Below, in pieces: positions 1-22,602 of a stretch of 40,510 nucleotides of DNA. Under the pieces are notes generated by a model, which worked only from the letters and a program-made list of their open reading frames with translations, ran no database searches and was not told where the DNA came from. The stretch's first letter is position 1. Each line of letters opens with the position of its first letter. The translations under genes and the position numbers were made by a program. Origin of the DNA: Rozella allomycis CSF55 (Eukaryota); the NCBI GenBank assembly GCA_000442015.1, contig KE561087.1:1-40510 (forward strand), read 5' to 3'.

Positions 1-1353
1 ATTCAAGGAAAGAGCAAATTTTAATGATATTGAAGATTATTTAAAATTTAGACAAGAAGGAATCAATTCAAGTATTCTCAGTTAATCAACTTTATTAAAG
101 GTGATGGATTTCAAGACTTGAGGCGAAGAATTTCAAACAATTTCTATTTCAATTCATGGAACCCTCAAGGTGAATTGATATCAAACTTGAATGAACACAA
201 ATCTCCTTTAACGTGCATTGCTGTTTCTTTGGATAGCAGAATGTTTGCAACTGCTGATGAATCTGGTGTTTTAAAGATTTGGGATTCTCTAAGACTTCAT
301 GTTAAAATTACAAATCGTTCCAGATTATCTTTTTCTTTCAGTAATAAAATATTTTGCTTTAAAATGATGCGAATATAAACGCCATGAAGTTTATCGGATT
401 CCATGTTATTGCTATTGCATTGGATGACGCTACGTTAAATATAATGAGGTTCATTGATGTTTAATTGTTTAATAGAGTTGAATGCGTTTTAAGAAATGAA
501 CACATAAAGTTTCAAAAATTGACGTTGGTAAAGAAAATACAAATTAACGATGTTATGACTATAATGGCACCTTCTAACCGTACTCTTTATATCTTCAAGA
601 ATATCTAGTATTCAAAAATTGCATCATAGTAGCATCAAAGAATAATTCAGTCTATTGTTTGGATATCGACTCTTGTTCAATTAAATATCACTTCAATGTG
701 AAATATTCCAATGGTAACTTTCTCATTAACACTTTAAAGGATACATAACTACCCTTGCTGTTCACAAAAGTGGTTTATGGCTAGTCACTTGCACATCAAA
801 AGGATTCATCGACTTTTGGGATTTAAGATTCCATCTAATCTTCAAATCCATTCAATTCAATTCAAAAATAACAAAAGTTTCAATAATAAATCACCATCAA
901 GAACCCAAAATAGCTTTTGCTGCCAACAACGAAATCCACATTTGGAATATTTCAGAACACAAAACCCAAATATTGTACAGGATAGTCGATGAATCTAGTT
1001 TTATTACAGATCTATTATCGATCGAATACGAAAACTCTGTATTATTGCTGTCATCCAGCAGCGATGGGTCCGTCAGAGTATGGAATGTAGATGACCCTGC
1101 AGCTTCAAAAGTCACTATTCCGAGCTACAGGCAAGAGTCAGATGCTGTGGTGTTTAAGAATACAGCGGCCTTTGTAAATGGAGTCTTGGTGGTGACTCAT
1201 GAACAGGATTTAAATGTTAAAGCGAATTCGCAGAAGTATATGAATGTCACCAGATCGCATTTCGATCATATTGTTCAATTGGAAACTTTAAGATACCCGT
1301 GTCCTTTGTTGATCACTGCAAGCAGGGATTGCCAGGTGAAAGCATGGAAATAA
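1..1353 (+). CDS. VPS15: Vps15/PIK3R4 (PI3-kinase regulatory subunit), C-terminal WD40 part; 5' truncated by the window edge; 5 short introns
   Basis: WNPQGELISNLNEHKSPLTCIAVS..FATADESGVLKIWD, DFWDLRF and terminal HFDHIVQL..LITASRDCQVKAWK match the Vps15 WD40 pattern. Introns at 72-100, 341-366 (GT-TG), ~449-475, ~580-608 and ~714-739 restore the frame. Confidence 0.85.
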
Positions 1354-2481: not shown

Positions 2482-2739
2482 TTATTGTCTTTTATGAATA
2501 TGATCTTTTACATAATGTGCAAGAAATAAATGATCCTCATGGAACACTTCATTGCACTCAGACCAGGTACATGGAAACTCATCATCGTCTGATTCTAATG
2601 ACACCATCCAGTTCACTTCCAACTCTTTTTTGAACCCAGGTATAACATCTCCAGCATCCAAATCTCTCCAATTCTCACACAGATCTTTTTCAAAACCACC
2701 ATCTAATGATTTCAGTACTTTATGCCAAAGTGGCTTCAC
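2482..2739 (-). pseudogene. C2H2 zinc-finger-like fragment (copy 2)
   Basis: C-x-W-x2-C-x3-F...H-x4-H pattern (CTWSECNEVFHEDHLFLAHYVKDH), Gli/Zic/Zap1-like spacing; no upstream in-frame ATG. Confidence 0.45.
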
Positions 2740-2874
2740 TTTTAGTTATTAAAGGTTATAGTTTCCCGGTTCGCCGGCACCCTTGAAGATTTCCAAAATT
2801 TAAGTCCCATCGCAAACTAAAATTCATGACTGTCATATAACTATATCTATTGATATGTGCTTCGGAATCTCATC

Positions 2875-3507: not shown

Positions 3508-4117
3508 ATATTAAAAAATAAGCAAATAAATCGCATTAACAATTTTATAATTGTTCATCAACTTTGATAATTAAAGATGACTTCATATCACCCTATATCT
3601 TCACATCAGTCGATTCTGCCTGATTTTATATTGAATCTGCTCATTTCTTTGTGTTCTATGAATTGAATTGTGAATAGTTTCAGAATGTATGTTTTTTATT
3701 GGGCATAACTTATCTTCTAGTATATTATAAGTATAGTCAATGAATGTATTATGTGAATGTGATGATAGATTTTTGTCGTAAATGCTGGTGACGTGAGAGA
3801 GTTATTGGAAGCCAAATAGACAATTGCCAATTTTATATCTTTTCCAGCCAAATGTAAACCCAAGTATGACATCTTATAGCGCACGGCTCTATTATTCTCA
3901 CGTAGATACTTTTATATACCACCATGGAGTGTTCATCGAAAGCAAAATGTTCTTGGTCGATGTCAATATACTCTATTTTACTATGAAAACTGAAAAGATC
4001 TATAATTTTAGTAAAAATCTTACTGTGATATTTTTGCTCACACTGTAACAGAAATGTCTCTAGTTGGTTTTTCCTACAAATTATTAATAGTGTCAGCCAT
4101 AGTAACAAAATTCTTTG

Positions 4118-7100
4118 ATGTTTTCCTCGACCAAAAAATTTTTCAAGACGATCTTACAGAAAAAGAAAAAAGTATGATAAATCAATCTATTTAATACAGG
4201 TTGTTTCAAGCCAAAAGGATAAACCACCCGAGATTACCATTGACACACCAAGAAGGTATTCCACTAAAGGAGCGGACGAAATATATGCAATGTATCTGCT
4301 AGTGCTTCATGAAATCACTAAAGATGGTGATGAGGAACAGGTTTCATTGACGAAAATAAAATCACTGCCTACAATAACGGTTGCGTTTGGGGAGGACAAG
4401 GTCACAGAGATATTTAATGATTTCGGGAAAAAAGGTGGATTAAAGCTGAGGTTTATTTTTTGTAAATTGTTGTCCTGGACTTCTGGGTCAATTGATGATA
4501 AATTCTTGTCCTGTGCCAAAGTTTATTTGAAGGATAAATCTAGTGTGTCTGGGATTAAATTGCAGGAATTGTTTAATGATATCAGTTTAAAAGCGGAAAA
4601 AAGTAAGGGCAAATCCATAAAGAACATTGTATCGGAATGGCATTTGGATGTAAAACAGCCGTCTACATTGTCTTCGTTTAAATCACTTTCTTCTGTTAAT
4701 AAGATTCCAAAAAGCAGTTCATTCTACGACAGTTATAATATTTTTCTCAAAGGAAGAGTAAGGTCTAGCTCAATGGAAAGAGACTCAACGAAGCAGACAA
4801 GCAAAAAATCTACTCAGTGTAGTATTTGTATGATTTGTCACGATTTTGACAGCGATATTGATGATTTTGTGCACGAAATATTTTTGGAAAATCAAAATAG
4901 GGTTGTAAATGGTGAGTTGCCAGTGTCTTGTGTTATTTCTTGGATTCATCAAAATCCCTCAAAGGCGAAATTCTTGTGGAATTTGCAAGAGAATGCAAAT
5001 GATTTCTCTTTGATACTTGAAGAAAAGAAGGCCGTTAAATTGTGCTTGAAAAATGCGCGGTACCGTGTTGGAGATCCTTGTTATATTTTGTCAAGTAGAT
5101 GGTGGCAATGTTGGTGTGAATATGTTCAATTCTATGAGACATCTGACGATATTTTAAATAAAGAGACTATTTTTCCCGGACCGATTGATAATATGGAAAT
5201 AATTGATTATGAATATAGCATTGAACCAATTGAATTTTATGCGTTGAAGAAAGAGTTACAAGAAGGATTGGATTTTATTTTGATTCCAGAAAATGTTTGG
5301 GAGCTGTTTTTTCTGTGGTATGGAGGAGGGCCGGTCATGGCGAGACAGATATTCAGTATTGAAAAGACCGAGGCTTTTATGGATGCACCGTTTAAAATCA
5401 AGAGAAATAAAATATTTAACGTGGAAGTTGAGCTTTTTCCTTTATTAATAAATATTAAACAAGCTGATGGTGAAACTAGTGAATGCATTGTAAGTTCTAT
5501 TAGTACTTTGCAAGATTTGATTAATATATCATGCAAATACTTGAATCTTGATGTATCTAAGCGATATTTACTTAGTATAAGCAAGGACGGAAATACATTT
5601 TTTGATTTTTCTATTGACCATGAAAACCCCAGAACTTTGGGTGAAATCGGATTAGAGAGCGGAAATATAGTAATGCTAACACAACAAGATGAAATCGCTG
5701 ATTTAGAAAAGAGCCAGCCTAAGGTTTCATTAACGGATGATAAAGAAAACATATATCATGGAATAGTCGGTCTTGAAAATTTGGGGAACACTTGCTATTT
5801 GAATGCTTCTCTGCAAAGCTTGATTAATTTATCATCATTTTCAAATTTGTTTATAAAGAATTTGTATGCATCGAGTATGAATGTGAATAAAGGCAGAAAG
5901 TTTAAAATACTTGACGAATTTGGCTTACTAATTAAAAAAGTTTTTCATTCAGTGGATGGATCCTGCTTAGCCCCACAAGAGTTTCGCAATGCTGTTTCTA
6001 AAATTTCTATTGAATTCGCTGGATACGCTCAACACGACGCACAAGAATTTTTGGGCGCATTGCTGGATGCCCTTCATGAAGATTTAAATAAGAATGTCGC
6101 CAAATCTTTTGTTAAAAATCCTGATTGGAAAGGTGAAAATGAAAACATGTTTGCTTCTATTTTATGGAAAAATCATCTGCAAAGAAATAATTCAATTCTT
6201 GTCCCAATTTTTCAAGGTCAATTAAAATCATTTACGGAATGCAATAGTTGCAAAAAGAAATCATTAAATTTCGATCCATTCTTATTCTTGTCAGTTCCAA
6301 TTCCGAGCATTCTCAGCAGATCTTTTCTTATAACCATAATTAATTTGGAATCTATTGTTTACCAAATTAAACTCACTGTAAATACCCAAGGAACTGCTGC
6401 TGATATTATTGCTGCTTGGAAAAAGATGTCTATTGAAGATCGTAAAAAGGAATATTTGTTGGCCGAAATAAATAATGGATATGTTTCAAATGTTATTAAA
6501 AGAAATAGATTGATAGATAACATCAGACAAAGCGATAATCTCGTTCTTTACGAATACAAAATTGGAATTACCAGAGTTGATTCAGAATTCCAGTTTGAAA
6601 CAAATCCATCATCAACATTGAAGAACAAATACGGATCAAGTGCTAGAATTCACTTTATAAATCGTAAATATAAAACTGAATTATTCAAATCCAAAGGAAA
6701 GTTTCTTCCCTTCGGCCTTCCCATTATTCATTTCTTTACTCTATTGGATGATAATACGATTCCTGTTAAAACTATATACGACACAATTCTTTATCGTCTT
6801 TCCAAATTATTAAATGTTTTCATTCCATTTAATGTTAAGGAAACATCACAAACAATTATTCCATGTAATTCAGATCCGTTTCAAGATGGTGAAATTCCCT
6901 TTGTTCTTCGATTTATTAACATAAAAGGAAGCCAATGCCGCTCATGTCAAGATGTCAATTGCACCGGCTGCATTCTTGGTTACAATAACGACACATTTCC
7001 CTTGTGTTGGGATGATTCTTTTTCAATTGATTGGAAAAACAATAAGTTGGCAGAGTTAGTTAAATTTGATAATCTAAAGAAACCAAATATAAATCTAAAT

Positions 7101-7619
7101 GTAAATCTCTCTGAAGACGAAGTATTTCTTGAAGACTGTCTATTGAAATTCCAGTATCCAGAAAAGCTTTTAGCAGATGAATATTTCTGCTCCAACTGCA
7201 ACACATATTCGGAGGCAACCAAAAAGATTTCTATCCATAGAGCGCCACTTGTTCTTATCGTCCACTTGAATAGATTCAAACAAAACATGTTCAATGTCAG
7301 TAAAAATTCTAAATTGGTTCGCTATCCATTTGAGCTCGTTTTAGAAAATGTTATTGTCGGTGATTCTTTTGATCATCCGCAAAATGTCAAATACGAGCTA
7401 CAAAGTGTTATTTGCCATGTTGGCGATGTTTCCAGTGGTCATTACATTTGCGTCGCTAAAAATACATACAGGAATAATTGGTATCTCTTTGATGACAACT
7501 ATTGCGGCCAAGTCGAAGATGTTCAACAAATTGTTTGTGAAGAAGGTTACATTTTGCTTTACCAGATGGTTGACTGCAATCGGCATCTAGATAAATTAGT
7601 AAAGGAATACTTTAAATAA
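4118..7619 (+). CDS. Ubiquitin carboxyl-terminal hydrolase with DUSP + UBL + USP catalytic domains (USP4/15/32-like)
   Basis: DUSP (YILSSRWWQCWCEYV..PGPIDN..WYGGGP), Cys box GLENLGNTCYLNASLQSL, QHDAQEFL, His box VICHVGDVSSGHY..WYLFDD. Proposed exon 1 is 4118-4171, then intron 4172-4199. Confidence 0.9.
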
Positions 7620-7877
7620 AAAAACAAAAATTTTATGATTTACTTGCGATATTTTTTATTTGGTAACGTGGATCATTTGAATCGATGAAATACAATTATT
7701 ATTTGCGCACCGGGTGATTCAACCGAAGTAGTTTACAATTGCCCTGGCGGAATTATGCTTACTGCTTACAAGTACATGATAGAAGCATTATAAATTCGTC
7801 AGTTTTAATTTTTTGAATCCGAAATAGAAGTTCACGACGTGGCAACTTATTTATACCTTGCTGCGCCATTAATTAGC

Positions 7878-8848
7878 ATGTCTAAACTGTCATTATTGCT
7901 GTCTATCTTGCTAGCCATGACAGTGAAAACAGATGAAATCTCTAGCTGGGTCCCAAAAATTCTCACATGGAATATTTATGCCTTTCCTCAACTTCCCTTC
8001 CCTGAATGGTTTCTAAGAACGTTGCCACTGTCTAATTTAACAAAGTCATACAGCTTTAAGGAGCGTACTGAAGCGATTGGAAACCATGAGCTTCTACAAG
8101 GTGCTGATATCATAGTGTTTTCAGAAATGTTTAATGATGGAGTCTACGAGTTGATAAAGGGCAAATTGAAGGATACTCACCCGCATTCTTCGCCAATTCT
8201 AATGTCTAAAAGACGAAATAGAGCGTTGAAGTTTACCATAACAAATGGTGGTTCAGTTATTTTTAGCAAGTGTAGGATCCTGACTATACAACAATTTGCT
8301 TTTAAGAAGGCTTGCGGGAGTGACAAATATGCATCAAAGGGCTTTTTTATTGCTGAAATCGACGCCCCTCAACGTACCTTGATAGTCTCAACACATTTGC
8401 AGGCAACCGATGATGGTTGCAATCCGGGACAAAGTGCACAGATAAGAAAGGAACAGCTCACCTATATTTACCAGGTTTTATCATTGCGCGCTTCTAGTGA
8501 TGACATTAAATTAGCGTTCTTGGTTGGTGATTTGAATGTCAATTATGGATCAGCGGAATACATAGACTCTGTAGAAAGATTTGATACAGGTAAGATATTT
8601 TTGTTTTTATAAAAGGCAATTATACAGTAAAAACAAACATTAAAAGTTTTGACACAAAGCACAACGGGATAGCGTTGAGGAGAGTTCCTGAAAGTCCTGT
8701 AGAACATTTGGATTATATTATACCTTTTAAAGGAGTTAATAATTACGTAAACGAAGCTTTAAATGTTACCTACAATGGCTCAAATGGTAAAGTCAAAGAC
8801 TATAGTGATCACTATCCTTTGCTTGGTTATTTACCAGAGAATATTTAA
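7878..8848 (+). CDS. Secreted sphingomyelinase C, bacterial beta-toxin/SMase type (EEP/DNase I-like fold)
   Basis: Signal peptide; motifs LTWNIY, VFSEMF, NGGSVIFSK, FKKACGSDKYASKGF, STHLQA, GDLNV. A 26-nt intron (8590-8615) adds EHLDYII and DYSDHYP; stop at 8846-8848. Confidence 0.85.
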
Positions 8849-8895
8849 GTCTACAAAATAAAATATTTAAAATCTTAGTTTTTATTTCTTTTTCT

Positions 8896-11610
8896 TTATT
8901 TCTTTTTCTTATCATCTTTCTTCTTTACTTCCTCAGGCTGTTCTAACCCGAGGTATGCTTGGCGTTTTTTAAATTGAGGTAATTTCTCCATCCAATCCTA
9001 ATTTGAAGCCTTAATAAATCCATACCTTGAAAGGTTTTTCCAATTCGTTTTCTTCAAAAATCTTTCTCCTTATATAACCAATGAAATCTTCCGTTGACAA
9101 AGGCCTCATTTTTGTCAGCTACAAATGAAGTACAATATTTTACCATTCGAATTCTTCTATTAGTTAAAATAGAATTTAACATGTCCGTTATCTATTTACA
9201 AATAATTGAATTTCCAAACCTCGTCTAATGAATAGTTTTCCGTCATCTTGGCAATAACACTCAAATTCAACGTTTTTGGAACAGGAGCTATACCTTTTTG
9301 ATAAACCATTTGGCTTATAACACTAAACCTCGTTCCATAATCAGGTTTTGGTATATAGATGACTTTTTCAAAACTTGACGCCAAGCCTTTATCGGCATCC
9401 CAAGGTTTGTTGGTGGTCCCTATTACGATTATTCTATCCTCTGATTTCAGCGTTTTCAAAGCTTTTGCCAAATCTTTTTTAATTCTTTTAGGATCTGATG
9501 CATCATCCTTTGGCACTTTCTTTGCGAAAACCATTTCAGCATTATCAATATATACAATAGCGGGCTTTAACTCTCTGGCTACTTTGAATACCATATGAAT
9601 CATTTTAACAACATTGGCTTTTCCTTGAAAAGGTGAATCCGCAGTATTTCTTGGTGTCAAATTGAAAACCGCGGCACCGAGCTCGTTAGCCAAAGCATTT
9701 ACCATCATTGTTTTACCAGTACCTGTCTTGTTCGCATTTTATTCTTACCTTTGGCTCCGACTAATAAAAGTGATTTCACAAAAGGAAAATCAGTTCGTGG
9801 AAATTGGAATCCTAATGGTAGTATGACATATTCAGTTAATAGTCTACGAATATCTTGAAGGGAATGCTCAACCACTAGCTTCGACGTGGCTTCATATTTG
9901 ACAGGCGCCATAAAGTTATGCTCGCAAAGATATTCTGACAATTTGATTTTCTGATAACGTTGAAGAATTCCTGATGTTGCCAATTCTTCTATAAGACTTT
10001 CCATGGTCCTGTTTGCGGTAAGATCTTTTTCTTTCTTTCCCTTCTTGCCTTTTGGTTTCTTTTCTTTCTTCCCCTTTTTCTTTTTTCCTTTGTCTTTTTC
10101 CAGAGTCATCTTTAAATTTGCTAATTCATCTTCAAGAAGTTTAAATATTTGATCTTTAATCTATTATCACTATTTAATCAAGAAGTTACTTCCGCCTCTA
10201 CTTCAAGGCGTTTATCCGCCTTTATAATATCAGGGTCATGCTTCTGTTGGAAATTTTCCTTATCAGAAGGATTATTATACCATTTATTCAAGTATTCCGT
10301 ATTGCTATCATCAATCATTATGATAAGATTACTATTTTTTGATATCGGCGACAAATTCAGATGGCTTCATGCTGAACTCATCTTCTTTCTCCTCTTGTTT
10401 ATCCTTTTTCTTTTCTGGCTTTGCAGAACTTTTTTTCGATGAGGCGCTTTGCGGCTTTACATTGCCAGAAACTGGGGTGTCGACTACCTTTTGAACACCA
10501 AACTTGAATGTTGGATCTCGCCATTCTTCCTCGGAGGGAAATTCAGGAAACTTCCCAGTCTCTTTCTTAACATTCATGTACCATTGACGGAAAGTATCTT
10601 GAATCGACTCACGAATATCTGGCCCCTCATTTTTTAGAAACCTTTTACGGCAGGATTGAGTATTTACTTTTCCTTAATATTCACCAAAGCTTGCTGATAT
10701 TCTTCTTCATATTGTTGTCTTATAAGACGTCTTTTCGCTGCATTGGATTCTGATATTTGGATAGGATCATTCTTAGGATCTTTCGCGGGCATCGTCATTC
10801 CTAAAAACAGCTGCTCCTCATAGGCCTCTTGTTTAGCGGCTTTTCTTGCGAGATATCCTCTCCAACTGATAATAATGCTGGATTTATCTTACACTCTTTG
10901 AATTGTTAATGCAGCTTCAGAAACGTCGATTTCATTGTCTACACTATCCAATAACCTTTCCCGCTCAGCCTGCATTCTAAAGTTAGAACTTTGAACGATA
11001 TGTACCTTATTTCATGAATAAATTTTGCACGCAGACTTCCTTGCCTGCCTCTTTCATTTGTCTGAATGCGCAATATGGCATCAGACAAGGTCATTGTTGT
11101 TTCTTGCTTTATTTTTTCCTGATCTAAAATCCTTGACCCATAGTTAGCCAAAAGTCTTTCACGTTCAGCACAAATAGCTTTCCTCTCTTCCATGATGAAT
11201 TTGGGAATATGGATATCAATGTCCTTGGGATTCAATTTTAGATCGAGTAGGAGATCATCGAGACATCCAAAATCTGAAAACTCCGTGTTTGCTATTTCCA
11301 GCTACAATAATAAATGTAATTTTACATGTTTGATTTCGAGCAATCGGCCCGCTACTGAAACTAGCAGGTCGCCCAGAAGGCGCCGTTTTTGAGGCTGCAC
11401 TAATTGGTCGTAGGACTCTTCAAGCTTGTTGAAGAAAAGAATGTATTTGATATATGAGGGCAATAATTGCTGTATTTTGGCATCCTTATCTGCAATGCGT
11501 TCTAGAGATGCCTCTTTTTCTAATTGCTCCATTATTTCCATGTTGGTGTGCTTCCATTGTTGGTCAAAGGTTCTAATCTCAAGATTAAATAAATTTTACA
11601 ATGACGACAT
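8896..11610 (-). CDS. IQCA1: IQ and AAA domain-containing protein / dynein regulatory complex subunit 11
   Basis: YDQLVQPQKRRLL N-terminal motif, IQ motif IQRVWRGYLARK, Walker A GAKGTGKT after splicing, AAA domain; 11 GT-AG introns of 24-29 nt. Confidence 0.88.
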
Positions 11611-11908
11611 GATGAGAGTATTGTGTTACTAGGGAGCTTCTGCATCAAATTGTTCTATGTTGTACTCATAAAATATAATTGTTGAATAGTTCAATGAATT
11701 AACTTTTTGCGCCGAGTATTTATTTGATCGCATGCTTCGTATTCAGAGAATCAGAATGGCATGGCCCCAGATAACATTAACAAAAATCTTAATAGCAATA
11801 AATACTAAAAAGTCATTCAAATTTCAAGGTGTCAACACATTATTTTCTGCTTTGAGCCACGAACATGCCTCTACAAGATTTGATTTCACCCTTGTCAAAA
11901 GTTCGCAA

Positions 11909-14900
11909 ATGTCAAAAAGCGAGCTAGTAGATCCCACCTATGTAGAAAAAGTGAAGGAATACGTGGTAAGCAATATAAATAATTTTTCCCAGAACAAACA
12001 GCCGCTAGTTCCTGCGTATTTGCAGTATAAAGGCCTGGTGCACCAGCACCTGCACTCGTTCAACTATTTCACGAGCACTGACATGCAGTATATCCTCTCT
12101 GCGAATTCTCTGGTGTCTTCAGACGTTGACCCGCATTTCTATTTGCGGTATACGAACATATACGTGGGCGAGCCTACACTTGACGAAGAGTTTATATCGA
12201 AAAAGGTGACGCCGCAGGAATGCCGGTTGCGGGATGCGACGTATTCGGCGAATATCTATGTGGATGTCAAGTATATGAGACATAGGAATGTGCTTGTTGA
12301 GAAGAAGGGGATTGTGATTGGGAGATTGCCGATCATGTTGCGCAGCAAGAATTGTGTGTTGTATGGGAAGAGCGATAATGAACTGTTCAAGGACCATGAG
12401 TGTCCGCTGGATCCTGGTGGATATTTTATTGTGAGGGGAGTTGAGAAGGTTATTTTGGTGCAGGAGCAGCTGAGCAAGAATAGAATATTGGTTGATGTTG
12501 ATAAGAAAGGGGAGGTGTGTGCTAGTGTAACGTCGTCGACGCATGAGCGCAAGTCCAAGACGAATGTTGTGGTGGTGAAGGGCAAGTTGTATGTGAAGCA
12601 TAATTCGTTTACGGAAGATATGCCTATTGTTGTGGTGATGAAAGCGTTGGGTGTTGTGTCTGATAAGGAAATAGCCATGATGGTTGGACATGAATCGCAG
12701 TATTTGACAACGTTTGGACCAAGTTTGGAAGAGTGTTCGCAGTTGCATATTTTTACACAGAATCAGGCGTTGGAATATATTGGAAGAAGATTGAAGATTA
12801 CAAAGAGATTGAGCAAAACGTATGCGGATGAAGCAAGAGATTTGTTGGCTGGTGTTGTCCTGGCTCATGTGCCAGTTGAAGGAGTTAATATGTTACCAAA
12901 GGCTATTTACTTTGCGTTGATGGCTAGAAGAGTTATTCAAGTAATAAACAATAATTAAAAATAAAAGGCACTGAATAAGACTGTAGATATTGATGATAGA
13001 GATTTTGTTGGAAATAAAAGACTTGAATTAGCTGGCCAATTGTTGTCATTATTGTTTGAAGATTTGTTTAAGAGATTTAATTCTGATTTAAAGAAGAGTA
13101 TGGACAAGGTGTTATCAAAGCAGAATAGAGCCCAAGACGTAGATTTAGTGAGATTGTTGCAATTACAAGTTGATTCTATAACGCAAGGGTTCTCAAGAGC
13201 TATTTCGACAGGGACATGGTCGTTGAAAAGATTTAAAATGGAGAGAGCTGGGATTACCCAAGTGTTATCTAGATTGTCTTTTGTTTCAGCGTTGGGAATG
13301 ATGACTAGAATAACATCGCAGTTTGAAAAAACAAGAAAGGTTAGTGGGCCTAGATCTTTGCAACCATCTCAATGGGGGATGTTATGTCCTTCTGATACTC
13401 CTGAAGGTGAAGCTTGTGGGTTAGTCAAGTAACGAAATTTCGTAAATCAATAAAATAGAAATTTAGCGCTGTTGACTCATATAACAACTGATATTGAAAG
13501 TGAACCTATTGTTAAATTGGTTTATGTGTTGGGAGTTGAAGATATTTTGACAGTTCAAGCTATTCATAGACCAGGAAATGTTTTAGTGTTTCTGAATGGT
13601 CTAGTTGTTGGGATAACAAGAAGAGAAGAAGAATTTATTAAAGACTTTAGAACGATGAGAAGAAAGGGGAAGATTAATGAATTTGTATCAATTTATTTTC
13701 ATAATCAAACAAATTCTATTCATATTTCATCTGACAGTGGAAGAGTTTGTAGACCTTGTATTATTGTAGAGAATGGAGTGTCTAAAGTGACAAGAGAACA
13801 TATGAAAGAATTGGAGAATGGGATTTTAACATTTAATGATTTTGTTCATCAAGGGTTGATTGAGTATTTGGATGTTAATGAAGAAAATGATTCGTATATT
13901 GCAGTTTATGAGAATGAAATAATAAAAGAAACAACACATTTAGAAATTGAACCATTTTGTGTATTGGGGGCTGTTGCAGGGTTGATTCCATTTCCACATC
14001 ATAATCAATCACCAAGAAATACTTATCAATGTGCTATGGGTAAACAAGCTATGGGTTCAATTGCCTTTAATCAATTAGAAAGATTTGATACTCTATTGTA
14101 TCTGTTGCAATACCCACAACAGCCAATGGTTAAAACTAAAACTATTGAATTAATTGGCTACGATCAACTCCCCGCTGGTCAAAATGCAACTGTTGCTGTA
14201 ATGTCTTACTCTGGCTATGACATTGAAGACGCTTTGATTATGAATAAATCTTCTCTCGATAGAGCGTTTGGCCGTTGCATTGTCTTGAAAAAGTTTGGTA
14301 CAAATATTAGAAGATACGCTAATGGCTCTTTTGATAGAATTGTTCCAACTTCTAAAATTGATGGTAAAATTCCTTTCAAGGGTGCCATTCTTGATGATGA
14401 TGGAATCGCAGCTCCTGGTGAAAGAATTTTACCTGGTCAAATTTATGTTAATAAACAGATGCCTGTATCTCTCGCAAATGAAACTTCTTTCACACCCGCG
14501 CCTTTATCTTACAAGGGTGCTGTTCCTTCTTACATTGATAAAGTTCTTTTAACTTCAAATGGTGATTCACAAGAAACTGTCAAAGTTTTATTAAGACAAA
14601 CTAGAAGACCTGAAATTGGTGATAAATTCTCTTCAAGACACGGTCAAAAAGTAAATATTTTAACTATATGAAAATAAAGGGTGTTGTCGGTTTAATTGTT
14701 CCTCAAGTTGACGTTCCATTTAATGATCAAGGTATTTGTCCTGACATTATTATGAATCCTCATGGGTTTCCTTCCAGAATGACAGTTGGAAAAATGATTG
14801 AATTGTTGGCAGGCAAAGCCGGTGTTCTTGAAGGTAAATTACACTACGGAACAGTAATCTATCTATCCTTGTTTAATTAGGCATTTGGTGGAAGCAAAGT

Positions 14901-15390
14901 TGAAGATGTCAGTAAAACTCTAATTGAACATGGGTATTCCTACTCTGGAAAAGATTATCTAACATCAGGAATAACAGGTGAACCTCTACAAGCATACATA
15001 TTCATGGGTCCCGTCTACTATCAAAAACTCAAACACATGGTCATGGATAAAATGCACGCTCGTTCACGCGGTCCAAGAGCCGTTCTCACACGCCAGCCAA
15101 CTGAAGGTCGTTCCAGAGACGGTGGGTTGCGTCTTGGTGAAATGGAGCGCGATTGTTTAATTGGTTATGGTGCGTCGATGCTTTTGCTTGAGCGATTAAT
15201 GATCTCGTCGGATGCTTTTGAAGTTCATGTTTGTATGAAATGCGGGCTGCTTGGGATGAAGGGATGGTGTACTGGATGCTCTACTGGAAGGCATATTGTG
15301 CAGATGAAGATTCCGTATGCTTGCAAGTTGCTGTTTCAAGAATTGCAGTCGATGAATATCGCGCCTAGATTGGTACTAGATGATATTTAA
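11909..15390 (+). CDS. POLR3B: DNA-directed RNA polymerase III second-largest subunit (RPC2/Ret1)
   Basis: [70 protein letters not shown] (pol III type). Five introns, including an in-frame one at 11966-11992. Confidence 0.95.
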
Positions 15391-15477
15391 TTATCTTTTT
15401 AAATAAACCGTTTTCTCACATTTAATATCTGGTCAACGTGTTTATGAAATTTCTCATTGCAATTTGTTATCCCAAAA

Positions 15478-16879
15478 ATGCTATTTAGATCCATCAGGTT
15501 ATTTAATCGTGAACCAATCAAACAAACAAGACGATATTCCAAAGACTTTTTCAATGTTAAAGGCCTAGGAAATCTCACCGAAGAGCAAGCCCAAGTAATT
15601 ACCTTGACACGCTCATATAAATTAGCTTAAAGAAACGGTCAAAAAGTTTTCAGAAACCGAGATTGCCCCTCGCGCCGCATCGATTGACAAGGAAAATCAG
15701 TTCCCCATGGACCTTTGGCGCAAATTCGGCAATCTCGGCATTCTCGGGGTCACAGTCCCTGAAAAGTATGACGGTCTTGGTCTGGGTTATCTCGACCATG
15801 TTCTAATCATGGAAGAAATCAGCCGTGCATCGGGAAGCGTCGCACTCAGCTATGGCGCGCATTCCAATCTCTGTGTCAACCAGATATCAAGAAACGGCAA
15901 CGAAAAGCAAAAAGACAAGTACCTTCCGCGCGTATAATTGACGTTTGGATTTGATATAGTTGATATCCGGCGAGCATGTTGGCGCCTTGGCAATGAGCGA
16001 GGTTGGATCCGGCAGCGATGTCGTTTCGATGAAGCTGAAGGCTGAAAAGAAGGGTGATTATTATATCCTCAATGGCACTAAAATGTGGATCACCAATGGG
16101 CCCGATGCCGATGTTATAGTTGTTTATGCGAAAACGGATCCCGCGGCTGGGTCCAAGGGCATTTCTACATTTATTGTCGAAAAGGGTATGGAGGGTTTTA
16201 CGACTAGCCAGAAGCTTGATAAACTTGGGATGAGGGGGTCTAACACTTGTGAACTTGTTTTTGAGAATTGTAAAGTTCATGGTAGCTGGATTGGCTTAAT
16301 TTGATTAGAATCTCAGTTGATGGGTAAAGAGGGGCAGGGTGTGTACATTTTAATGAGTGGATTGGATTATGAAAGAGTCGTGCTTTCTGGGGGTCCTTTA
16401 GGACTTATGCAAGCGGCAATTGATTGTGCGGCTCCTTATGTTCACACTCGTAAGCAGTTTGAGACTCCAGTTGGTGAATTTCAAGTAACATGATTTACAA
16501 TCTAGTAATGTTAATGCAAGGGAAACTTGCTGATATGTACATAAATCTGAATACCTCAAGATCCTATGTATATGCGGTAGCAAAGGCATGTGATAATGGC
16601 ATTCGTGATAACAAAGTAAGAACGTTTTAATAGCACGATAGGATTGCGCTGGAGCGATTCTTTATTCTGCAGAAGCCGCCACAGTAACATTTGTTTTTGC
16701 TCAATTTAAAGAAAGTTGCATTAGATGCTATTCAATGTCTGGGTGGAAACGGTTACATTAACGACTATCCTACTGGCAGGATATTGCGAGATGCAAAGCT
16801 GTATGAAATTGGAGCTGGAACAAGTGAAATACGAAGACTTATTATAGGCCGTGAGTTCAACAAATTTTACAAGCAATAA
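15478..16879 (+). CDS. IVD: Isovaleryl-CoA dehydrogenase, mitochondrial
   Basis: [84 protein letters not shown]-terminal presequence; 6 introns, one of them GT-TG. Confidence 0.93.
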
Positions 16880-16967
16880 ATAATAGATGATTCCCACTAA
16901 AGACGCATTATTCATGTACATTATTCACATTGCTTGTTATTCTCACCTTAACTGCTGTGCCACATTT

Positions 16968-17723
16968 ATGGACGCCAGCAATGAGCAAATTGATCCACTG
17001 CTTTGCATGCCGACTATAAAGCAAAACCTGGACAAATTTTCGCCGAGATATGCCGATCGAAGCAAGGCGCTGGCCGACATTATTGACAAATCATACCACC
17101 GCGACAGAATTGAAAAGATGTTAAAAAAGGCGTTTGAAAGCAACGTTGACCGAGATTATATAGAAATGAATGATATAGAAGCGAATAATGTAAAGATGCA
17201 GAAGAAACATGCGTGTAGCGAATCGTTGACAAGTTGTTCGCTGCTGAATTTGATGTTGGCGGAAACTGGTGTTACGATAACGGCGCTGTTGTTTGAGCTT
17301 CATAGGGGATTGAACAATGAGTATTGGAAGCATGTGGGGAATGATATGCGGAAGATTATATTTTCATTCTTGTATAGTGAAACCAGCTACTATTTCCTGT
17401 CGAGCCTTGAGCTGCTTTTGAACCGCTATTCGGGTGAATGTGTGAGAGATGATGTGAAAGAGTATATTGACAATTTGTGTTCTCTGCAGTATATGGCGAG
17501 GGAGTACAAGTCATTCAAGGAGGTATATAAGCCGCTGCTTAGTTTGAGGAGTGAGCATGATGGAGACTGGGTTCCACAGCCAGCCGATTTTGATAATATA
17601 ATACGAAATAGAGAATCAAATATGATTAGGAAACAGCGGCTGATTAACTGGACTACGCCGTTGATTATTGTATTGATTGTAGTAGTTGGAAGACTGTTTA
17701 TTGTAACTAGAAAAACTAAATAA
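16968..17723 (+). CDS. Hypothetical protein with a C-terminal transmembrane helix (start uncertain)
   Basis: Long intronless ORF; C-terminal PLIIVLIVVVGRLFIV followed by a basic tail; no recognised domain. Confidence 0.55.
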   Translation: MDASNEQIDPLLCMPTIKQNLDKFSPRYADRSKALADIIDKSYHRDRIEKMLKKAFESNVDRDYIEMNDIEANNVKMQKKHACSESLTSCSLLNLMLAETGVTITALLFELHRGLNNEYWKHVGNDMRKIIFSFLYSETSYYFLSSLELLLNRYSGECVRDDVKEYIDNLCSLQYMAREYKSFKEVYKPLLSLRSEHDGDWVPQPADFDNIIRNRESNMIRKQRLINWTTPLIIVLIVVVGRLFIVTRKTK

Positions 17724-17748
17724 AAAATTGGCTTTGATAGAAATTATT

Positions 17749-20029
17749 TTATTGAGAGACTTCTTTTATGATTTGTAATTCAGAGAGAGTTGATGACCCT
17801 TTGATTTCCAGACCATTTTCGTTTGCGAGATGGAGAACGCATATGAAGCAAAATGGGACTGAAATATCGCGAAACTTTTCTTCTGGATAAAATGAGGAGA
17901 GGCCATTGACGATATTTTTAAAGTCTATTGTGTTATTTTGAGGGACTGTTTCAATTTCAGTCCAAATGTTTTCTTTGAGTTTTTTGACGTCGACTTTTTT
18001 TGAGGTTTTAGCGTAATTCATTTTTAAAGATTTTGTTAATTTTGGTTCAGCGACTAGGGTGTTGCCGAAATCGAAATCTAATTCTAGACCATTGTAGAAT
18101 GGCTGTGAAGTTGGAATGTCGTCGTCTTCATTGAAATCGAAGCCAGCGAATTCTTCTTCTTCAGAGGCAACTATTAATCATTTAGAAGAATTTATTACGA
18201 TTGTCATTGAAGAGAGATCCTCTTTGTTGAGTTGTCGTTAAATCTAATGGTTGAGCAGTAGGAGAAACATCACCCATAGGAGAAACATCATCAACATTAA
18301 CATTGTGATTATCATTACAATCATTATAGTTATCATTATTGTTGTCATATTCAAGTTGGTTTGAGTCGAAACCTTTGCCTTGTGTAAATTTTACTCTCGT
18401 TGAAGGTTTTAGAGTAAATTTTGGTTTAGTGAAGAGACAAGTGAATTCTTTTGAAGAGATTTGAAAATCATCTGGCAAAAGATGAATATTTTTTGTTTGT
18501 TCTTGAAGATTATTTCTAGTAAAAGTGATTGGAGCTTGATTTGTTGCTTTTGTAGCAAAAAGTTGATCTAAATTGATTGGTTCCATTGAAAAGAAATCTA
18601 TAAAAAATTCCTTCTTTTCTTTCTTTTGTTTTGTTGGTTTATTTATAGAATTTTTAGTTTTAATAAAATTTGTTAATTTCCAATGTTCTGGACCTAGATT
18701 TGATCTAAAAATAAATTTTGATTACCAGCCCAATTCTTAAATATTCTAGAATCAAAATACGAAAAAATATTTTCCTTTTCATTCGCCATTGAAGACAAAA
18801 ATTCTTCTTCAATTGGAATTCTTTGTTGCTGAGTTTCTTCATTAATTTGTTCAGGCAAAATATCTTCATTTTCTTCAAATCCTTCATTAAAATCAAAATT
18901 ATTTATATCTTCTTCATTAATCAATTCTTCTATTTGAAGTGGAACATTATCTTCTATCCTTTTAAACATCTCCTGCATATCAATCGTCATGCTATTCGTT
19001 GAATCCCCAATCGAATAATCCTTAAACGTTGGGCAAATGTCTCTACTAAAAACATCTTCAATATCAGGTATAAATTTATCTATCTTCAATCCACATTCAA
19101 TTTACCAATCAACTTTGAAATATCCAACTCTTCATTCCTCTCCAATGAACTTGGAATCTCTTCATCTATCACATCAACCGCCTCACTCGAATCAAACAAT
19201 ATCTTCCCTGAACTCGTAATCATCAAATTATTCAACAACAAGCCCCTCGCTCCCCCTTCATCAAAGTCTGCACTAGTCTTCTTAAACAACGGATCAACAT
19301 CAAACTCCAAATCAAAATTCTTTATGCTAATATGCGCCAAGTTCTTCTCTATCGTATTCACACGGTTTCTCCGCTTCACCTTTTCAACATTCACCTCTTC
19401 ATCATCCTCTTCATCCTTGTCCTTTATATTCGCTTTCCCTATCTCACATTATCACCATCATTACTCTTTTCTGATTCAGACAATCCAGACAACAGCTTTC
19501 CAGTCTCTGTCGCTACAGAATCAACTCTCGACGTATATATCTTCACACACCCATCCAACGTACACGACGCCTACATCCCCCACCACTCATCTCCCTACCT
19601 TTTGAAAGTTAATCGAATCCCCATCTCTCAGCAAACTCATCTCACTAAAATAATCAATCAGCGCCAAATTCCACGTATTATTCACATTAATTTTCTATCC
19701 AATCCCTAACAAAATTTTACATTATCAGCAGCAATCTTTATCCACTCCTCAAACTGCTTGCTCGCAATCTCCTTGCTCGGAATAACAGCTGGCTTTTCGT
19801 TCGACAACACCATTTGTTGTTTTTGTTTGTTTGGACTCTGGAATAGCAACCGACCACCAGTCGGACTAAGAAGCAACGGACGGCCCTGCTTTGGTGATTG
19901 CATAGGCGAAGGTGATAGCAGCGCCAACGAGCGTCTCTGGCGCTCCTGCATAATGTTTCTGCGCTTCTTGCGGATTTCAGTTGCATCGTCGTTAAAAGGA
20001 GACATTAATGGTCTCTTTTGTCGCGTCAT
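17749..20029 (-). CDS. NCAPH: Condensin complex subunit 2 (barren/Brn1/CAP-H)
   Basis: EEWIKIAADNKIN..NTWNLALIDYF, NFQKASCTLDGCVKIYTSRVDSV, DPLFKKTSADFDEGGARGLLLNNL, WAGPEHWK, ISVPFCFICVLHLANE; 6 introns. Confidence 0.93.
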
Positions 20030-20192
20030 TTTCGATTGCGAAATTTACAAATTGGAAAATGGCGCGCTCAAGGAGGAATGGATTTATGAAGAAATTGTTG
20101 TGGAACCTAGAGAGAAACGGAGCTGAAAGAACTTCTTTATAAATTAACTATCAGAGTGGACGAACTGATTCTGAAACCAATTGAGAGGTAGT

Positions 20193-20275
20193 ATGTTTTG
20201 AATCTAGTTAGGCCGAATAGAAGATCATCAGAAATGAACATAATTGATGCAATCCACTAACTAGATTCAAAACAT
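20193..20275. repeat. Perfect 19-bp inverted repeat with a 45-nt spacer
   Basis: atgttttgaatctagttag (20193-20211) and ctaactagattcaaaacat (20257-20275) are exact reverse complements. Confidence 0.9.
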
Positions 20276-20785
20276 CAAGCTTATTTGGCACTGAATATGG
20301 AACTCCTAAGTACTCTTCATTGAGTGTTTGTAAAACGCGCTCATAAATAATACTGTGAACTCAGTGACAAGCTCTTTTCCTAATTGGTCAGTTTGTATGA
20401 TTCCTCCGGCCACTGTTCTTTCGGAAGTTCTGGCAAACTCCCGCCGACACTACCACTGAAGAGTTGTTATCAATCGCAAAGCGACTTGGAGTGGATTACT
20501 TGGGACCGCTGTTGAATTTCCTTGTTCCTTCCCTAAATCTGGAAAAATGCATGGAAACAACAAACTTCTTATCGTCTTTCTCTTGTCGCAGAGAAGAAAA
20601 TAATTCAAAGAAAGCCAGGTGTCATATTTTCTGCAATAGTACGATAGCAATCACGAAAATAAAGGTTGTGCAAAGAGGTGGACAGAATTATATTGTAATT
20701 GTCATTCATTACAAAAGTTTCAGGGTCGATACGAACGCAGGAACTTACAAATCGGAAAAATAGTGCTAAAATCATTGGGTTTTTA

Positions 20786-22241
20786 TTAACCGTGGTAGAT
20801 CTCTGCATCAATTTGGTGCATGCTTTTCTTTGTCAAGGCGATGCCTCGTTCTTTTCGCCGCTTTCCTTCAAGATATATCATGGCTTCCTCATAGGTTCTT
20901 GGCATGATTTTTGGGACATTGTCTTCCTTGGATCGAAATGTAAAGTAAAATGTGTTGGTTGTGTCACTTTGTCCTGTTTTTACATCAGTAACGTCAGCGA
21001 TGACCTTTTTTTATGAAGCCACAAGATTACCTGAACCTGAAATGAATGATGTGGTGCTCCTTCAGAATAAACAACTTGAGCAGTAAACGTCAAAATGGAG
21101 CCAATAGGTACTGGTTTTTTAAACGATAATTCATCTAATGCAACAAAATATGCTTTTGACTTTATGAACAGCGATGCATTGGCGAAAGCAAGTTCAAATG
21201 CTTCTCTCATTAGAAAACCCCCAAAGATAAAATTATGAATGTTTCTATCCTACTTATGTAACGCTTCTTAAATGTACTTGTGGGTGACAAAATTTTGTCG
21301 ACTTTAGTATAGTATCTTCCATATACATAAAATTATTATGCTTTTCGATTTTATTCTTTTCCAAAAATAAATTATGTATGATCACACTCTCCATGCTTGT
21401 TGGAGGCTGCCTGTCCAAAGACAATTGTGCTTCAAGCTGCTTTCTCTTTCTATGTTCTACAAAATTCGAATCACATCCATACCATCCGCTAGTTGAAAAT
21501 TCAACAATTCTTCTTCAGTTTCTAGTTTTAGCGGATTGACCATGACCGCCTTATTCGCTTTGGGATCGCGTGCGACCATCGTAAACTTTGCGATCGCTAC
21601 ACTGTTCCATTTAATTTCTGAATCAATTTCCTTTTTCGTTTCTACTTTTATTGTGACTTCCATACTACTAGACCCAACATACGTAACATTCCCGCGCAAA
21701 TACACGTCTTGGTCTTTTCTCAAAAATGATATCAAATCAATTCGATCAACCGATGCTGTAACAATAACAAGTTGTTGATGATGAAACGAATCACAGTGTA
21801 AATATGCTATAGACCCAGCTACGGCATCCAGATCTTCCATTATGCGGCCAAATCGCAGCCCTCCATAAACATTCACATATTCTTCCCTCAATGTTTCATT
21901 GCTCTTAAAGGCAAGGCATCTATTTTATTTTATGAATATAAGTACATCTCGAAATACGAATCTGACATTTTCCTCGCTGCAAGGTTAGAGGCACCACCAA
22001 CAATGATGGGGTTCTTTAATTTTCTAGAGCTTTTTTCATATTTAATACTCTCTGCTTCCGCTTGATACTTTCGCTCTCCCCATAATGATCTTGGCAGAAT
22101 GGATAACGTTGGGTGCTGTGTCCTCATTGTGGGCATCACAATCTTGGGATCGTCGGTTTTGTTGCTAAAATATCTTCTTGGTAAAATTAATTTTCTCGTG
22201 TGATGATTCCCAAGGATTCGCCTAAAACAACAAGAAAACAT
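20786..22241 (-). CDS. ACOT9: Mitochondrial acyl-CoA thioesterase, double hot-dog fold (ACOT9-like)
   Basis: Arg-rich presequence; YVNVYGGLRFGRIMEDLDAVAG..IVTASVDRID, HPQDRNIHNFIFGGFLMREAFELA, TNTFYFTF..MPRTYEEAMIYLEGKRR; 4 introns. Confidence 0.85.
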
Positions 22242-22375
22242 GAAAAGGTAAATTTCGTAGATTAACCTGTCAGCTTGATTCTGGTTATATTGCTGCTTAA
22301 TACTTTGTGGAAAAAGTAAAGTTCTGCACAAAAGAACAATATAAAATGAAAAATATGTTATTAAGCCCAAAATAA

Positions 22376-22448
22376 TGCCTTCTGGGGGATTCGAACACCC
22401 GACCTCATGCTTACTAGGCATGCGCTCTGCCAACTGAGCTAAGAAGGC
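22376..22448 (-). tRNA. tRNA-Thr (anticodon AGT)
   Basis: GCCTTCTTAGCTCAGTTGGCAGAGCGCATGCCT-AGT-AAGCATGAGGTCGGGTGTTCGAATCCCCCAGAAGGCA. Acceptor, D and anticodon stems pair fully; TTCGA loop present. Confidence 0.95.
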
Positions 22449-22602
22449 TGTTGTGTCCTCATTTCTCTTGTTTTGATAATGTTGAATACCCTTTACCGCA
22501 TTCATCTGCTGTGTTATGTCTTTTTTCCCAGTTACGATAGCATAGCTACAAATTTTGGCACATTTCTGTTATCTAAATTATCCGTTTTGATTTTTCTTAA
22601 CC

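What the first reader, a model, noticed from the sequence alone, without database searches (positions are those of the whole stretch)
16485..16510. Second GT-TG intron, in the conserved IVD GEFQ|LMQGK motif, skipping a nearby AG
Seen: GAA TTT CAA|gtaacatgatttacaatctagtaatg|TTA ATG CAA GGG AAA CTT GCT GAT ATG TAC. Splicing at TG (26 nt) gives the canonical acyl-CoA dehydrogenase sequence [14 protein letters not shown]. The AG five bases earlier (21-nt intron) gives an immediate TAA, and the next AG is out of frame. Both TG introns end in aatg and are 26 nt. Inference: 3' sites in this organism may be chosen by distance (a ruler) with relaxed AG recognition. About 2 of ~59 introns here would be a high non-canonical rate and could reflect an unusual spliceosome.
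Basis: partly seen in the sequence, partly recalled or inferred. Interest (0 to 1): 0.78.

Follow-up and report, generated by a model that had tools for sequence, protein, structure and literature searches.

The report
Probable GT-TG mini-intron in Rozella IVD
In the parasite Rozella allomycis, the isovaleryl-CoA dehydrogenase gene gives its conserved, cofactor-binding sequence only if a 26-base intron ending in TG instead of the near-universal AG is removed, and the public gene model avoids this by deleting four conserved residues; no RNA data were available to show which splice is really used.

Summary
The window is a 40,510-bp scaffold of Rozella allomycis CSF55. Removing 16485-16510 (GT...TG, 26 nt) joins two IVD exons so that they abut residue-for-residue on 5 of 5 solved IVD chains and gives a 411-aa open frame. 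The TG is real DNA: an independent DNA run has a depth-230 contig across it with no differences.

The public protein model uses GTGAAT(16474)...AG(16505) instead. That replaces GEFQ with VM. It removes a Phe kept in 117 of 117 homologues and the Gln that contacts the FAD adenosine in human IVD.

In my census of 53 window introns, lengths are 24-33 nt and 49 of 51 AG introns use the first AG at 24 nt or more from the donor. The skipped AG at position 21 is therefore normal here. The two TG candidates (this one and 341-366) are the only ones with no AG inside that length range.

No RNA evidence could be obtained, so TG splicing is inferred (about 0.65). TG 3' sites are known in humans, but only as alternative sites. 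Here TG would be the productive site, which would be a new variant of a known kind.

The parts
15478..16879 (+). Isovaleryl-CoA dehydrogenase (IVD) gene of Rozella allomycis CSF55; 7 exons and 6 introns; 411 aa under the TG model
   Evidence: P0001, named by its source; Pfam PF02771/PF02770/PF00441; the model built from coordinates has no internal stop, ends in TAA, and is 67.6-73.2% identical to six homologues.
16309..16484 (+). Exon 4, ending ...TPVGEFQ
   Evidence: residues 2-56 of the translation align to 8sgr_A 269-323 and 1ivh_A 237-291, and residues 1-56 to 4o5m_A 232-287. The last residue is the Gln equivalent to human Q323.
16485..16510 (+). Proposed 26-nt GT...TG intron (GTAACAT...TAATG)
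   Evidence: The donor 7-mer is the same as that of the intron at 16684. 26 nt is the most common length (13 of 51). DNA confirmed.
16504..16505 (+). AG inside the intron (positions 20-21 from the donor). It is skipped; using it gives CAA|TAA
   Evidence: Internal AGs ending at positions up to 22 (and one at 25) are skipped in other window introns.
16474..16479 (+). GTGAAT, the donor used by the public gene model together with AG 16504-05 (32-nt intron)
   Evidence: the model rebuilt with these coordinates is identical to P0001. 0 of 51 census introns have G at +3 (the census favoured GTA).
16511..16615 (+). Exon 5, starting [10 protein letters not shown]
   Evidence: it starts at 4kto_A 308, 4o5m_A 288, 1ivh_A 292, and 8sgr_A and 9jq4_A 324.
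16519..16520 (+). Next AG downstream (position 36 from the donor). Out of frame and beyond the longest intron seen (33 nt)
15595..15625 (+). IVD intron 1, GT-AG, 31 nt
   Evidence: exon joins reproduce P0001
15932..15959 (+). IVD intron 2, GT-AG, 28 nt
16282..16308 (+). IVD intron 3, GT-AG, 27 nt
16616..16641 (+). IVD intron 5, GT-AG, 26 nt, with a skipped internal AG at position 18
16684..16711 (+). IVD intron 6, GT-AG, 28 nt, starting GTAACAT like the TG intron
341..366 (+). Second candidate non-AG intron (GT...TG, 26 nt; or 341-363, GT...AA, 23 nt) in a Vps15/PIK3R4-like WD40 gene
   Evidence: no AG until position 49 from the donor; the upstream exon matches PIK3R4 residues 978-1039.

Best explanation
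16485-16510 is a genuine ultrashort U2-type spliceosomal intron of the R. allomycis IVD gene, and its productive 3' splice site is UG rather than AG.

Proposed mechanism (inferred):
1. Introns here are about 24-33 nt and have no clear branch-site motif, so the 3' site is chosen mainly by distance from the 5' site and branch point.
2. The AG at position 21 lies too close to be used, as do the other internal AGs in this window.
3. The next AG, at position 36, lies outside the usable range.
4. The second catalytic step therefore takes the UG at position 26. UG keeps the terminal G.

The mRNA then encodes an intact FAD-binding stretch ...[17 protein letters not shown].... By-products from other sites may be made and would carry stop codons or lack GEFQ. 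The public gene model (GTGAAT..AG, 32 nt) is most likely an artefact of predictors that allow only GT-AG.

Shown: the DNA sequence, the collinearity, the conservation and the window-wide length rule. Inferred: actual use of TG in RNA, and the mechanism.
For: 1. Exact collinearity of the two exons on 5 of 5 solved IVD chains. The same test gives the right answer for a canonical SF3B3 intron in this window.
2. Of the 120 proteins listed, 118 carry the DYE[RK] anchor. 117 of the 117 non-Rozella ones keep the same spacing and a Phe at this site (111 FQ, 6 FE). Only the public Rozella model P0001 is 2 residues shorter. For P0032 and P0067 the spacing was read by eye from the printed segments, because the script's regex missed them.
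3. The junction 9-mer under the TG model is identical to that of 6 homologues.
4. The exon's last Gln aligns with human IVD Q323. A cryo-EM paper reports that Q323 holds the FAD adenosine from the neighbouring subunit, and used Q323A as an FAD-binding negative reference (PMC12369846, passages).
5. The TG model gives 411 aa with no internal stop. Against 6 of 6 homologues compared, it scores 12-15 bits higher with one gap opening fewer than the public model. At 67.6-73.2% identity the gene is not decaying.
6. The donor GTAACAT equals that of another IVD intron. 49 of 51 census donors are GTA, and 26 nt is the modal length.
7. 49 of 51 AG introns use the first AG ending at 24 nt or more. Both TG candidates have their first such AG at 36 and 49 nt, beyond the longest intron seen, 33 nt.
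8. Four AG introns skip a TG that lies 3-4 nt before the AG, so AG wins when it is in range.
9. With any acceptor allowed, my gene finder calls non-AG ends at only 3 of 51 introns, this one among them.
10. The TG is confirmed in DNA of another sample, with no variant listed there.
11. Three of 10 short ORF fragments from other organisms break off 1-5 residues after FQ. One ends FQVT, like the window's read-through. This suggests an old intron position at this codon boundary.
Against: No transcript evidence was obtained. No RNA run holds the stretch, and the one RNA run laid gave only 18-27-nt chance pieces.

In humans, TG 3' sites were found only as alternatives next to an AG, never as the sole site, and the paper's text reports that AG>TG mutations activate neighbouring AGs rather than splicing at TG (PMC2374985, sections read).

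A canonical in-frame alternative exists. The 32-nt GTGAAT..AG intron obeys the 'first AG at 24 nt or more' rule, has T at -3, lies inside the observed length range, and is what the public record uses.

My census penalised non-GTA donors and lengths outside 24-34 nt. The 0-of-51 GTG count and the 33-nt maximum are therefore partly built in. With flat priors the finder became noisy and called 6 GTG donors.

The sample is two candidates in one 40-kb window, and one of them can equally be read as GT..AA.
Confidence: 0.65

Rival explanations
1. The public model is right. The mRNA uses the GTGAAT donor at 16474 and the AG at 16504-05 (32-nt GT-AG intron), and Rozella IVD really carries VM in place of GEFQ.
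For: It is fully canonical and in frame. It equals the deposited protein. Its length of 32 nt is within the observed range (2 of 51), and it uses the first AG at 24 nt or more from that donor.
Against: It removes a Phe kept in 117 of 117 homologues and the FAD-contacting Gln. The four 'intronic' codons would then spell the conserved GEFQ, in frame and directly before a consensus donor, by chance. G at +3 occurs in 0 of 51 census donors (biased census). The model scores lower against 6 of 6 homologues. The one flat-prior GTG call that I tested against solved structures, in SF3B3, lost to the overlapping GTA intron, which gave collinearity.
Confidence: 0.15
2. The TG is a fixed A-to-T lesion of a former AG acceptor in this cultured strain. 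Splicing now goes to cryptic sites or fails, so the gene is crippled or only weakly functional, and TG is not a normal acceptor in this organism.
For: Human AG>TG mutants do not splice at TG (PMC2374985). A single base change (taatg to taaag) would make a typical acceptor of this genome, where A at -3 occurs in 13 of 51 and A at -4 in 29 of 51. R. allomycis is an obligate parasite with reduced metabolism (recalled, not from a call).
Against: The rest of the gene is intact and 67.6-73.2% identical to six homologues, with no other defect. No variant is listed at the site at depth 230, in an organism reported to show a triploid pattern (PMC6784888, passages). A second non-AG candidate lies in an unrelated gene of the same 40 kb.
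Confidence: 0.13
3. The 26 bases are removed at the DNA level (a ciliate-type TA-bounded excision from 16486 to 16512, with TAACAT/ATGTTA inverted ends), or they are an assembly artefact.
For: TA dinucleotides lie 26 bp apart and the ends form a 6-bp inverted repeat. Removal would give GEFQ-V-MQGK, in frame.
Against: The DNA contig of another sample contains the 26 bases, and no DNA record skips them (tables 4 and 5). The hairpin is no more stable than shuffles (-3.4 kcal/mol, z 0.04, 86 of 200 shuffles fold as well). The other TG candidate lacks such ends. The product would carry V where 115 of 117 homologues have L and 2 have F.
Confidence: 0.02

Closest known systems
TG 3' splice sites of human U2-dependent introns (Szafranski et al. 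2007, PMC2374985; abstract and one results section read)
   Same: A GT donor with an ordinary U2-type consensus and TG as the last two intron bases. An AG lies close by (here 5 nt upstream and 10 nt downstream, within the 28-nt limit reported for TG-AG tandems).
   Different: In humans TG is only an alternative site, never the sole or productive one, in 36 genes and in introns of ordinary length. Here TG would be the only site that yields a functional protein, the intron is 26 nt, and the rate would be about 2 of 53 in this window. Use in RNA is not shown here.
Ultrashort introns of R. allomycis noted in the S23 gene (Whelan et al. 2019, PMC6349667; passages read)
   Same: About 30 nt, introducing premature stops, and lacking the 5' and branch-point motifs of microsporidian introns. 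This matches the 24-33-nt introns without a clear branch motif found here.
   Different: In the passages I read, that paper mentions two putative introns in passing and says nothing about non-AG ends or a length rule.
Tiny-intron lineages such as Paramecium and dicyemids
   Same: A narrow intron length distribution near 25-30 nt, which suggests recognition across the intron with a tight distance constraint.
   Different: Different lineages. I know of no report there of frequent TG acceptors (recall only).

Membership tests
U2-type spliceosomal intron with a TG 3' splice site | GT at the 5' end within the organism's own donor consensus | tested here: met
   GTAACAT. +3 A occurs in 49 of 51 and +4 A in 35 of 51. 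The 7-mer is identical to that of intron 16684.
U2-type spliceosomal intron with a TG 3' splice site | TG as the terminal dinucleotide in genomic DNA, not a sequencing error | tested here: met
   The X3 contig spans 15528-16622 at depth 230 with 0 differences.
U2-type spliceosomal intron with a TG 3' splice site | The exon-exon junction is seen in transcripts | not testable with these tools
   No RNA holder was listed. RNA run X10 gave no real cover. No transcript-derived protein fragment was found.
U2-type spliceosomal intron with a TG 3' splice site | A nearby AG (TG-AG tandem within 28 nt, as in the human cases) | tested here: met
   AG at -5 (16504-05) and at +10 (16519-20). For 341-366 the nearest AG is 23 nt downstream.
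Ultrashort intron class of this genome | Length within the organism's range, and retention gives a stop codon | tested here: met
   26 nt, the modal length (13 of 51; range 24-33). Read-through gives GEFQVT then a stop.
U12-type (minor) intron | Long conserved RTATCCTT-type 5' motif (motif recalled, not from a call) | tested here: not met
   The donor reads GTAACATG.
Ciliate-type internal eliminated sequence | Absent from somatic DNA; TA-bounded | tested here: not met
   TA..TA boundaries exist, but the DNA contigs keep the 26 bp and no skipping record was seen.
Isovaleryl-CoA dehydrogenase (acyl-CoA dehydrogenase family) | The three ACAD domains and close similarity to solved IVDs | tested here: met
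   P0001 carries PF02771, PF02770 and PF00441. Best solved-structure hits are IVDs, E 2.6e-22. 67.6-73.2% identity to six homologues, five of them fungal or fungal-like.
Isovaleryl-CoA dehydrogenase (acyl-CoA dehydrogenase family) | FAD-contacting Gln (human Q323) present | tested here: met
   Met under the TG model only. It is absent from the public model.

The most novel reading that the evidence does not exclude
R. allomycis places 3' splice sites with a molecular ruler, about 24-33 nt from the donor in introns that have no recognisable branch motif. It routinely accepts UG, and perhaps other non-AG ends, as the constitutive and productive acceptor when no AG falls in that range. A few per cent of its introns would then be GT-TG, and the deposited gene models would be systematically wrong at those sites.
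Probability: 0.4. Interest if true: 0.75.

Novelty: new variant of a known kind. Interest (0 to 1): 0.55.

Why it matters
If RNA confirms it, this would be, as far as my searches show, a case where TG is the productive and possibly sole 3' splice site of a U2-type intron, in a lineage with ~27-nt introns next to the microsporidia. The human study (PMC2374985) concluded that TG cannot act constitutively.

It would give a natural system for asking how the second step of splicing picks its site when distance, not sequence, dominates.

There is a practical point that holds regardless. The deposited R. allomycis IVD protein lacks a conserved FAD-contacting segment, most likely because GT-AG-only gene prediction forced a wrong intron. 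Similar hidden errors may exist elsewhere in this proteome, which is widely used in fungal and microsporidian comparative work.

Tried and rejected
- **Whole genome:** none is held. No genome-wide census and no look at U2AF, Prp8, Slu7 or snRNA genes was possible.
- **RNA evidence:** no RNA holder was listed. RNA run X10, laid on 2500-22499, gave only 18-27-nt pieces and none in IVD. Runs X5 and X6 do not reach 16485.
- **341-366 in reads:** I left 1-2499 out of the laid stretch because of an N and a ~500-bp repeat, so 341-366 was not checked in reads.
- **Protein searches for transcript-derived fragments across the junction:** none were near-identical, either longer or 30-98 aa.
- **Metagenome scan with P0001:** all 80 loci kept are 61-74% identical IVDs matched as one stretch, without introns. 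No close Rozella relative appeared, so there is no comparative view of the intron.
- **Search for an annotated long protein holding the Vps15-like exon:** none found. The 26-aa exon after 341-366 is too short to hit a solved structure, so collinearity at that junction is untested.
- **Hairpin pairing the two intron ends:** not better than shuffles. Rejected.
- **Branch-site motif (yTnAy):** absent from 22 of 53 introns and at scattered distances in the rest.
- **ORF-pair scans:** too noisy. Replaced by a small dynamic-programming gene finder.
- **Flat-prior gene finder:** noisy, with 56 introns and many spurious long ones. Used only as a caveat.
- **Literature:** seven completed searches found no paper in the held library on non-AG splice sites in Rozella. 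The genome paper (James et al. 2013) is not held, so I do not know whether its gene models used RNA. Supplementary files were not consulted.
- **Earlier findings of this scan:** nothing on this genome.

Full report
**What the window is**

A protein search with the exon before the finding returned a 409-aa protein, P0001. Its source names it 'acyl-CoA dehydrogenase NM domain-like protein [Rozella allomycis CSF55]', and its longest contig is 40,510 bases, the size of this window. The window is therefore one scaffold of that rozellid, an intracellular parasite of the water mould Allomyces. Rozellids are treated as sister to the microsporidia (PMC6349667, PMC6784888, passages).

The window is gene-dense and about 36% G+C, and it uses TAA as a stop. 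No whole genome is held for it.

**The observation**

I enumerated every GT donor from 16457 to 16485 against every AG or TG acceptor from 16505 to 16532:
- GT16485..AG16505 (21 nt) gives CAA|TAA.
- GT16485..AG16520 (36 nt) is out of frame.
- GT16485..TG16510 (26 nt) gives ...[17 protein letters not shown]....
- Only two GT-AG pairs stay open: 16474..16505 (32 nt, GEFQ replaced by VM) and 16474..16520 (47 nt, loses GEFQLMQ).

No shift of the 26-nt intron boundaries gives the same mRNA, because the flanking bases differ (direct reading).

**Homology**

The two exons abut without loss or overlap on all five solved IVD chains that both exons match.

| Chain | Exon 16317-16484 ends at | Exon 16511-16615 starts at |
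|---|---|---|
| 4o5m | 287 | 288 |
| 4kto | 307 | 308 |
| 1ivh | 291 | 292 |
| 8sgr | 323 | 324 |
| 9jq4 | 323 | 324 |

As a positive control I ran the same test on a canonical intron of the SF3B3 gene in this window (36309-36282, minus strand). The exon ends at residue 246 of chain 7b9c_A with one query residue left over, and the next exon starts at 249. That leaves room for exactly that residue plus the split codon.

Of the 120 proteins listed, 118 contain the DYE[RK] anchor; P0012 and P0113 do not. All 117 non-Rozella ones have the same spacing from that anchor to the ADM motif and a Phe at this place (111 FQ, 6 FE; 116 have the Gly). For P0032 and P0067 I read the spacing by eye from the printed segments, because the script's regex missed them. 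Only P0001 is two residues shorter.

The Gln at the exon's end aligns with Q323 of human IVD. A cryo-EM study describes Q323 as holding the FAD adenosine from the neighbouring subunit, and used Q323A as an FAD-binding negative reference (PMC12369846, passages).

**The public model**

P0001 reads ...QFETPVVMLMQGK.... Rebuilding the gene from coordinates with donor 16474 and acceptor 16505 reproduces P0001 exactly. With 16485-16510 removed instead, the gene gives 411 aa with no internal stop. Against each of the six homologues compared, this model scores 12-15 bits higher with one gap opening fewer, at 67.6-73.2% identity.

I could not learn whether that model rests on RNA, because the genome paper is not held.

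**Is the TG real DNA?**

Yes. A contig from run X3, a different sample, spans 15528-16622 at depth 230 with no difference and no gap. No variant or indel row falls between 8781 and 17045. Contigs can drop rare variants, so a minor allele is not excluded.

**RNA**

None was available. No RNA run holds the stretch. The one RNA run I laid gave only 18-27-nt pieces. No transcript-derived protein fragment crossing the junction is in the protein collection.

**Intron census of the window**

I wrote a small dynamic-programming gene finder. It uses codon log-odds trained on 12 long ORFs of the window and allows GT donors only. Non-GTA donors are penalised, lengths of 24-34 nt carry no penalty, and TG acceptors carry a penalty of -6.

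It predicts 51 introns: 49 GT-AG and 2 GT-TG. Adding two IVD introns that it missed by starting the gene late gives 53.

Features of the 51 AG introns:
- **Length:** 24-33 nt, median 28; 44 of 51 are 26-29 nt and 13 are exactly 26.
- **Donor:** +3 is A in 49 and T in 2.
- **Acceptor:** -3 is T in 34 and A in 13.
- **Branch motif:** no yTnAy match in 22 of all 53 introns.
- **Skipped internal AGs:** AGs ending at positions up to 22, and once at 25, are skipped.
- **Acceptor rule:** 49 of 51 use the first AG ending at 24 nt or more from the donor.

Skipping the AG at position 21 is therefore ordinary here.

In the two TG candidates the first AG at 24 nt or more lies at 36 and 49 nt. Both are beyond every AG intron seen. 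Four AG introns contain a TG at 24 nt or more that is passed over for an AG 3-4 nt further on.

The pattern fits a hierarchy: an AG within the range is preferred, and TG is used only when no AG is there.

When any dinucleotide is allowed as acceptor at the same penalty, non-AG ends are called at only three places:
- 16485-16510 (TG).
- 341-363 (AA, an equally open alternative to TG at 366).
- 4172-4197 (AC, next to a canonical AG option).

Caveats:
- The priors favour GTA donors and 24-34-nt lengths, so the donor count and the 33-nt maximum are partly built in.
- With flat priors the finder becomes noisy and GTG donors. One of these, in SF3B3, overlaps the GTA intron that searches confirm by collinearity.

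**Further support for the donor at 16485**

GTAACAT is also the start of IVD intron 6.

Three of the 10 short ORF fragments from other organisms found stop 1-5 residues after FQ. One ends FQVT, the same read-through as in this window. This suggests an intron at the same codon boundary elsewhere. I could not fetch their DNA.

**Mechanism (inferred)**

Introns this short, without a branch motif, are likely defined across the intron with a tight distance constraint. After the first step, the AG at 21 is too close and the AG at 36 is too far. The UG at 26 keeps the terminal G. From recalled structural work (not checked here), that G pairs with the first intron G during exon ligation.

The human precedent shows that TG can be used at the second step when an AG is near (PMC2374985). 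Here AGs lie 5 nt before and 10 nt after the TG.

**Rivals**

- **The public GT-AG splice is real (0.15).** It is canonical, but it deletes invariant, cofactor-binding residues, and it would leave conserved in-frame codons sitting inside an intron by chance.
- **A fixed AG-to-TG lesion in a crippled gene (0.13).** It fits the human mutant data. It does not fit the otherwise intact gene, or the second candidate in an unrelated gene.
- **DNA-level excision or an artefact (0.02).** DNA contigs keep the 26 bp, and the end-pairing hairpin is no better than shuffles.

**Novelty**

TG 3' sites are known. About 30-nt introns in R. allomycis have been noted in passing (PMC6349667). Seven completed searches of the held library found nothing on non-AG splice sites in Rozella.

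If RNA confirms it, TG as the productive acceptor at about 2 of 53 introns would be a new variant of a known kind.

**Verdict**

- Observation: confirmed.
- Interpretation: partly supported.
- TG splicing: probable (about 0.65) but unproven.
- The deposited IVD model is probably wrong at this intron.

Noticed in passing
window 905-1400 and 1937-2432; N at 1934: The last ~500 bp of the Vps15-like gene and its 3' flank occur twice, well over 90% identical (one search gives 86% over the whole alignment, unaligned starts included). The second copy starts right after the single N. This is either a scaffolding or haplotype artefact or a recent tandem duplication.
   Followed up: partly
window 22376-22448 (-): A tRNA-Thr(AGT) gene. 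In the DNA runs this ~79-bp piece has far higher depth (up to 1840) and many different flanks, as expected of a multi-copy tRNA gene.
   Followed up: partly
window 3132-3195, 4347-4408, 6431-6492, 8770-8781, 17045-17069, 17561-17612: Clusters of base differences carried by about a quarter to under half of the depth in run X3. This is consistent with the non-haploid (triploid-like) pattern reported for R. allomycis (PMC6784888, passages). None lies in the IVD gene.
   Followed up: no
window 15019 / 16265: One contig of run X5 joins these two places on opposite strands (table 5). It looks like a chimeric contig, not a feature of the genome. X3 is collinear on either side of these places (records 8 and 9, with a gap at 15463-15527 in the pieces shown).
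   Followed up: no
window 10892-10860 (-): This intron of the IQ/AAA-like gene has two in-frame AG acceptors 6 nt apart (27 or 33 nt). It may be a pair of alternative acceptors.
   Followed up: no
window 4172-4199 (+): Near the 5' end of the ubiquitin-hydrolase-like gene, the gene finder switches between a 28-nt GT-AG and a 26-nt GT-AC intron depending on settings. The gene start is unresolved.
   Followed up: no
window 9199-9157 (-): The only AG-ended intron that links two exons of the IQ/AAA-like gene here would be 43 nt. Some introns may therefore exceed the 33-nt maximum of my census.
   Followed up: no
window 33261-37018 (-): An apparently intact SF3B3 (U2 snRNP) gene with six 27-29-nt GT-AG introns. 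At least this core U2 component is present.
   Followed up: partly
proteins P0121, P0124, P0125: Short ORF fragments of IVD from other, unnamed organisms stop just after the FQ codon pair. P0125 also seems to start at the same exon boundary as Rozella exon 4. This hints that both intron positions are shared with other early-diverging fungi.
   Followed up: partly
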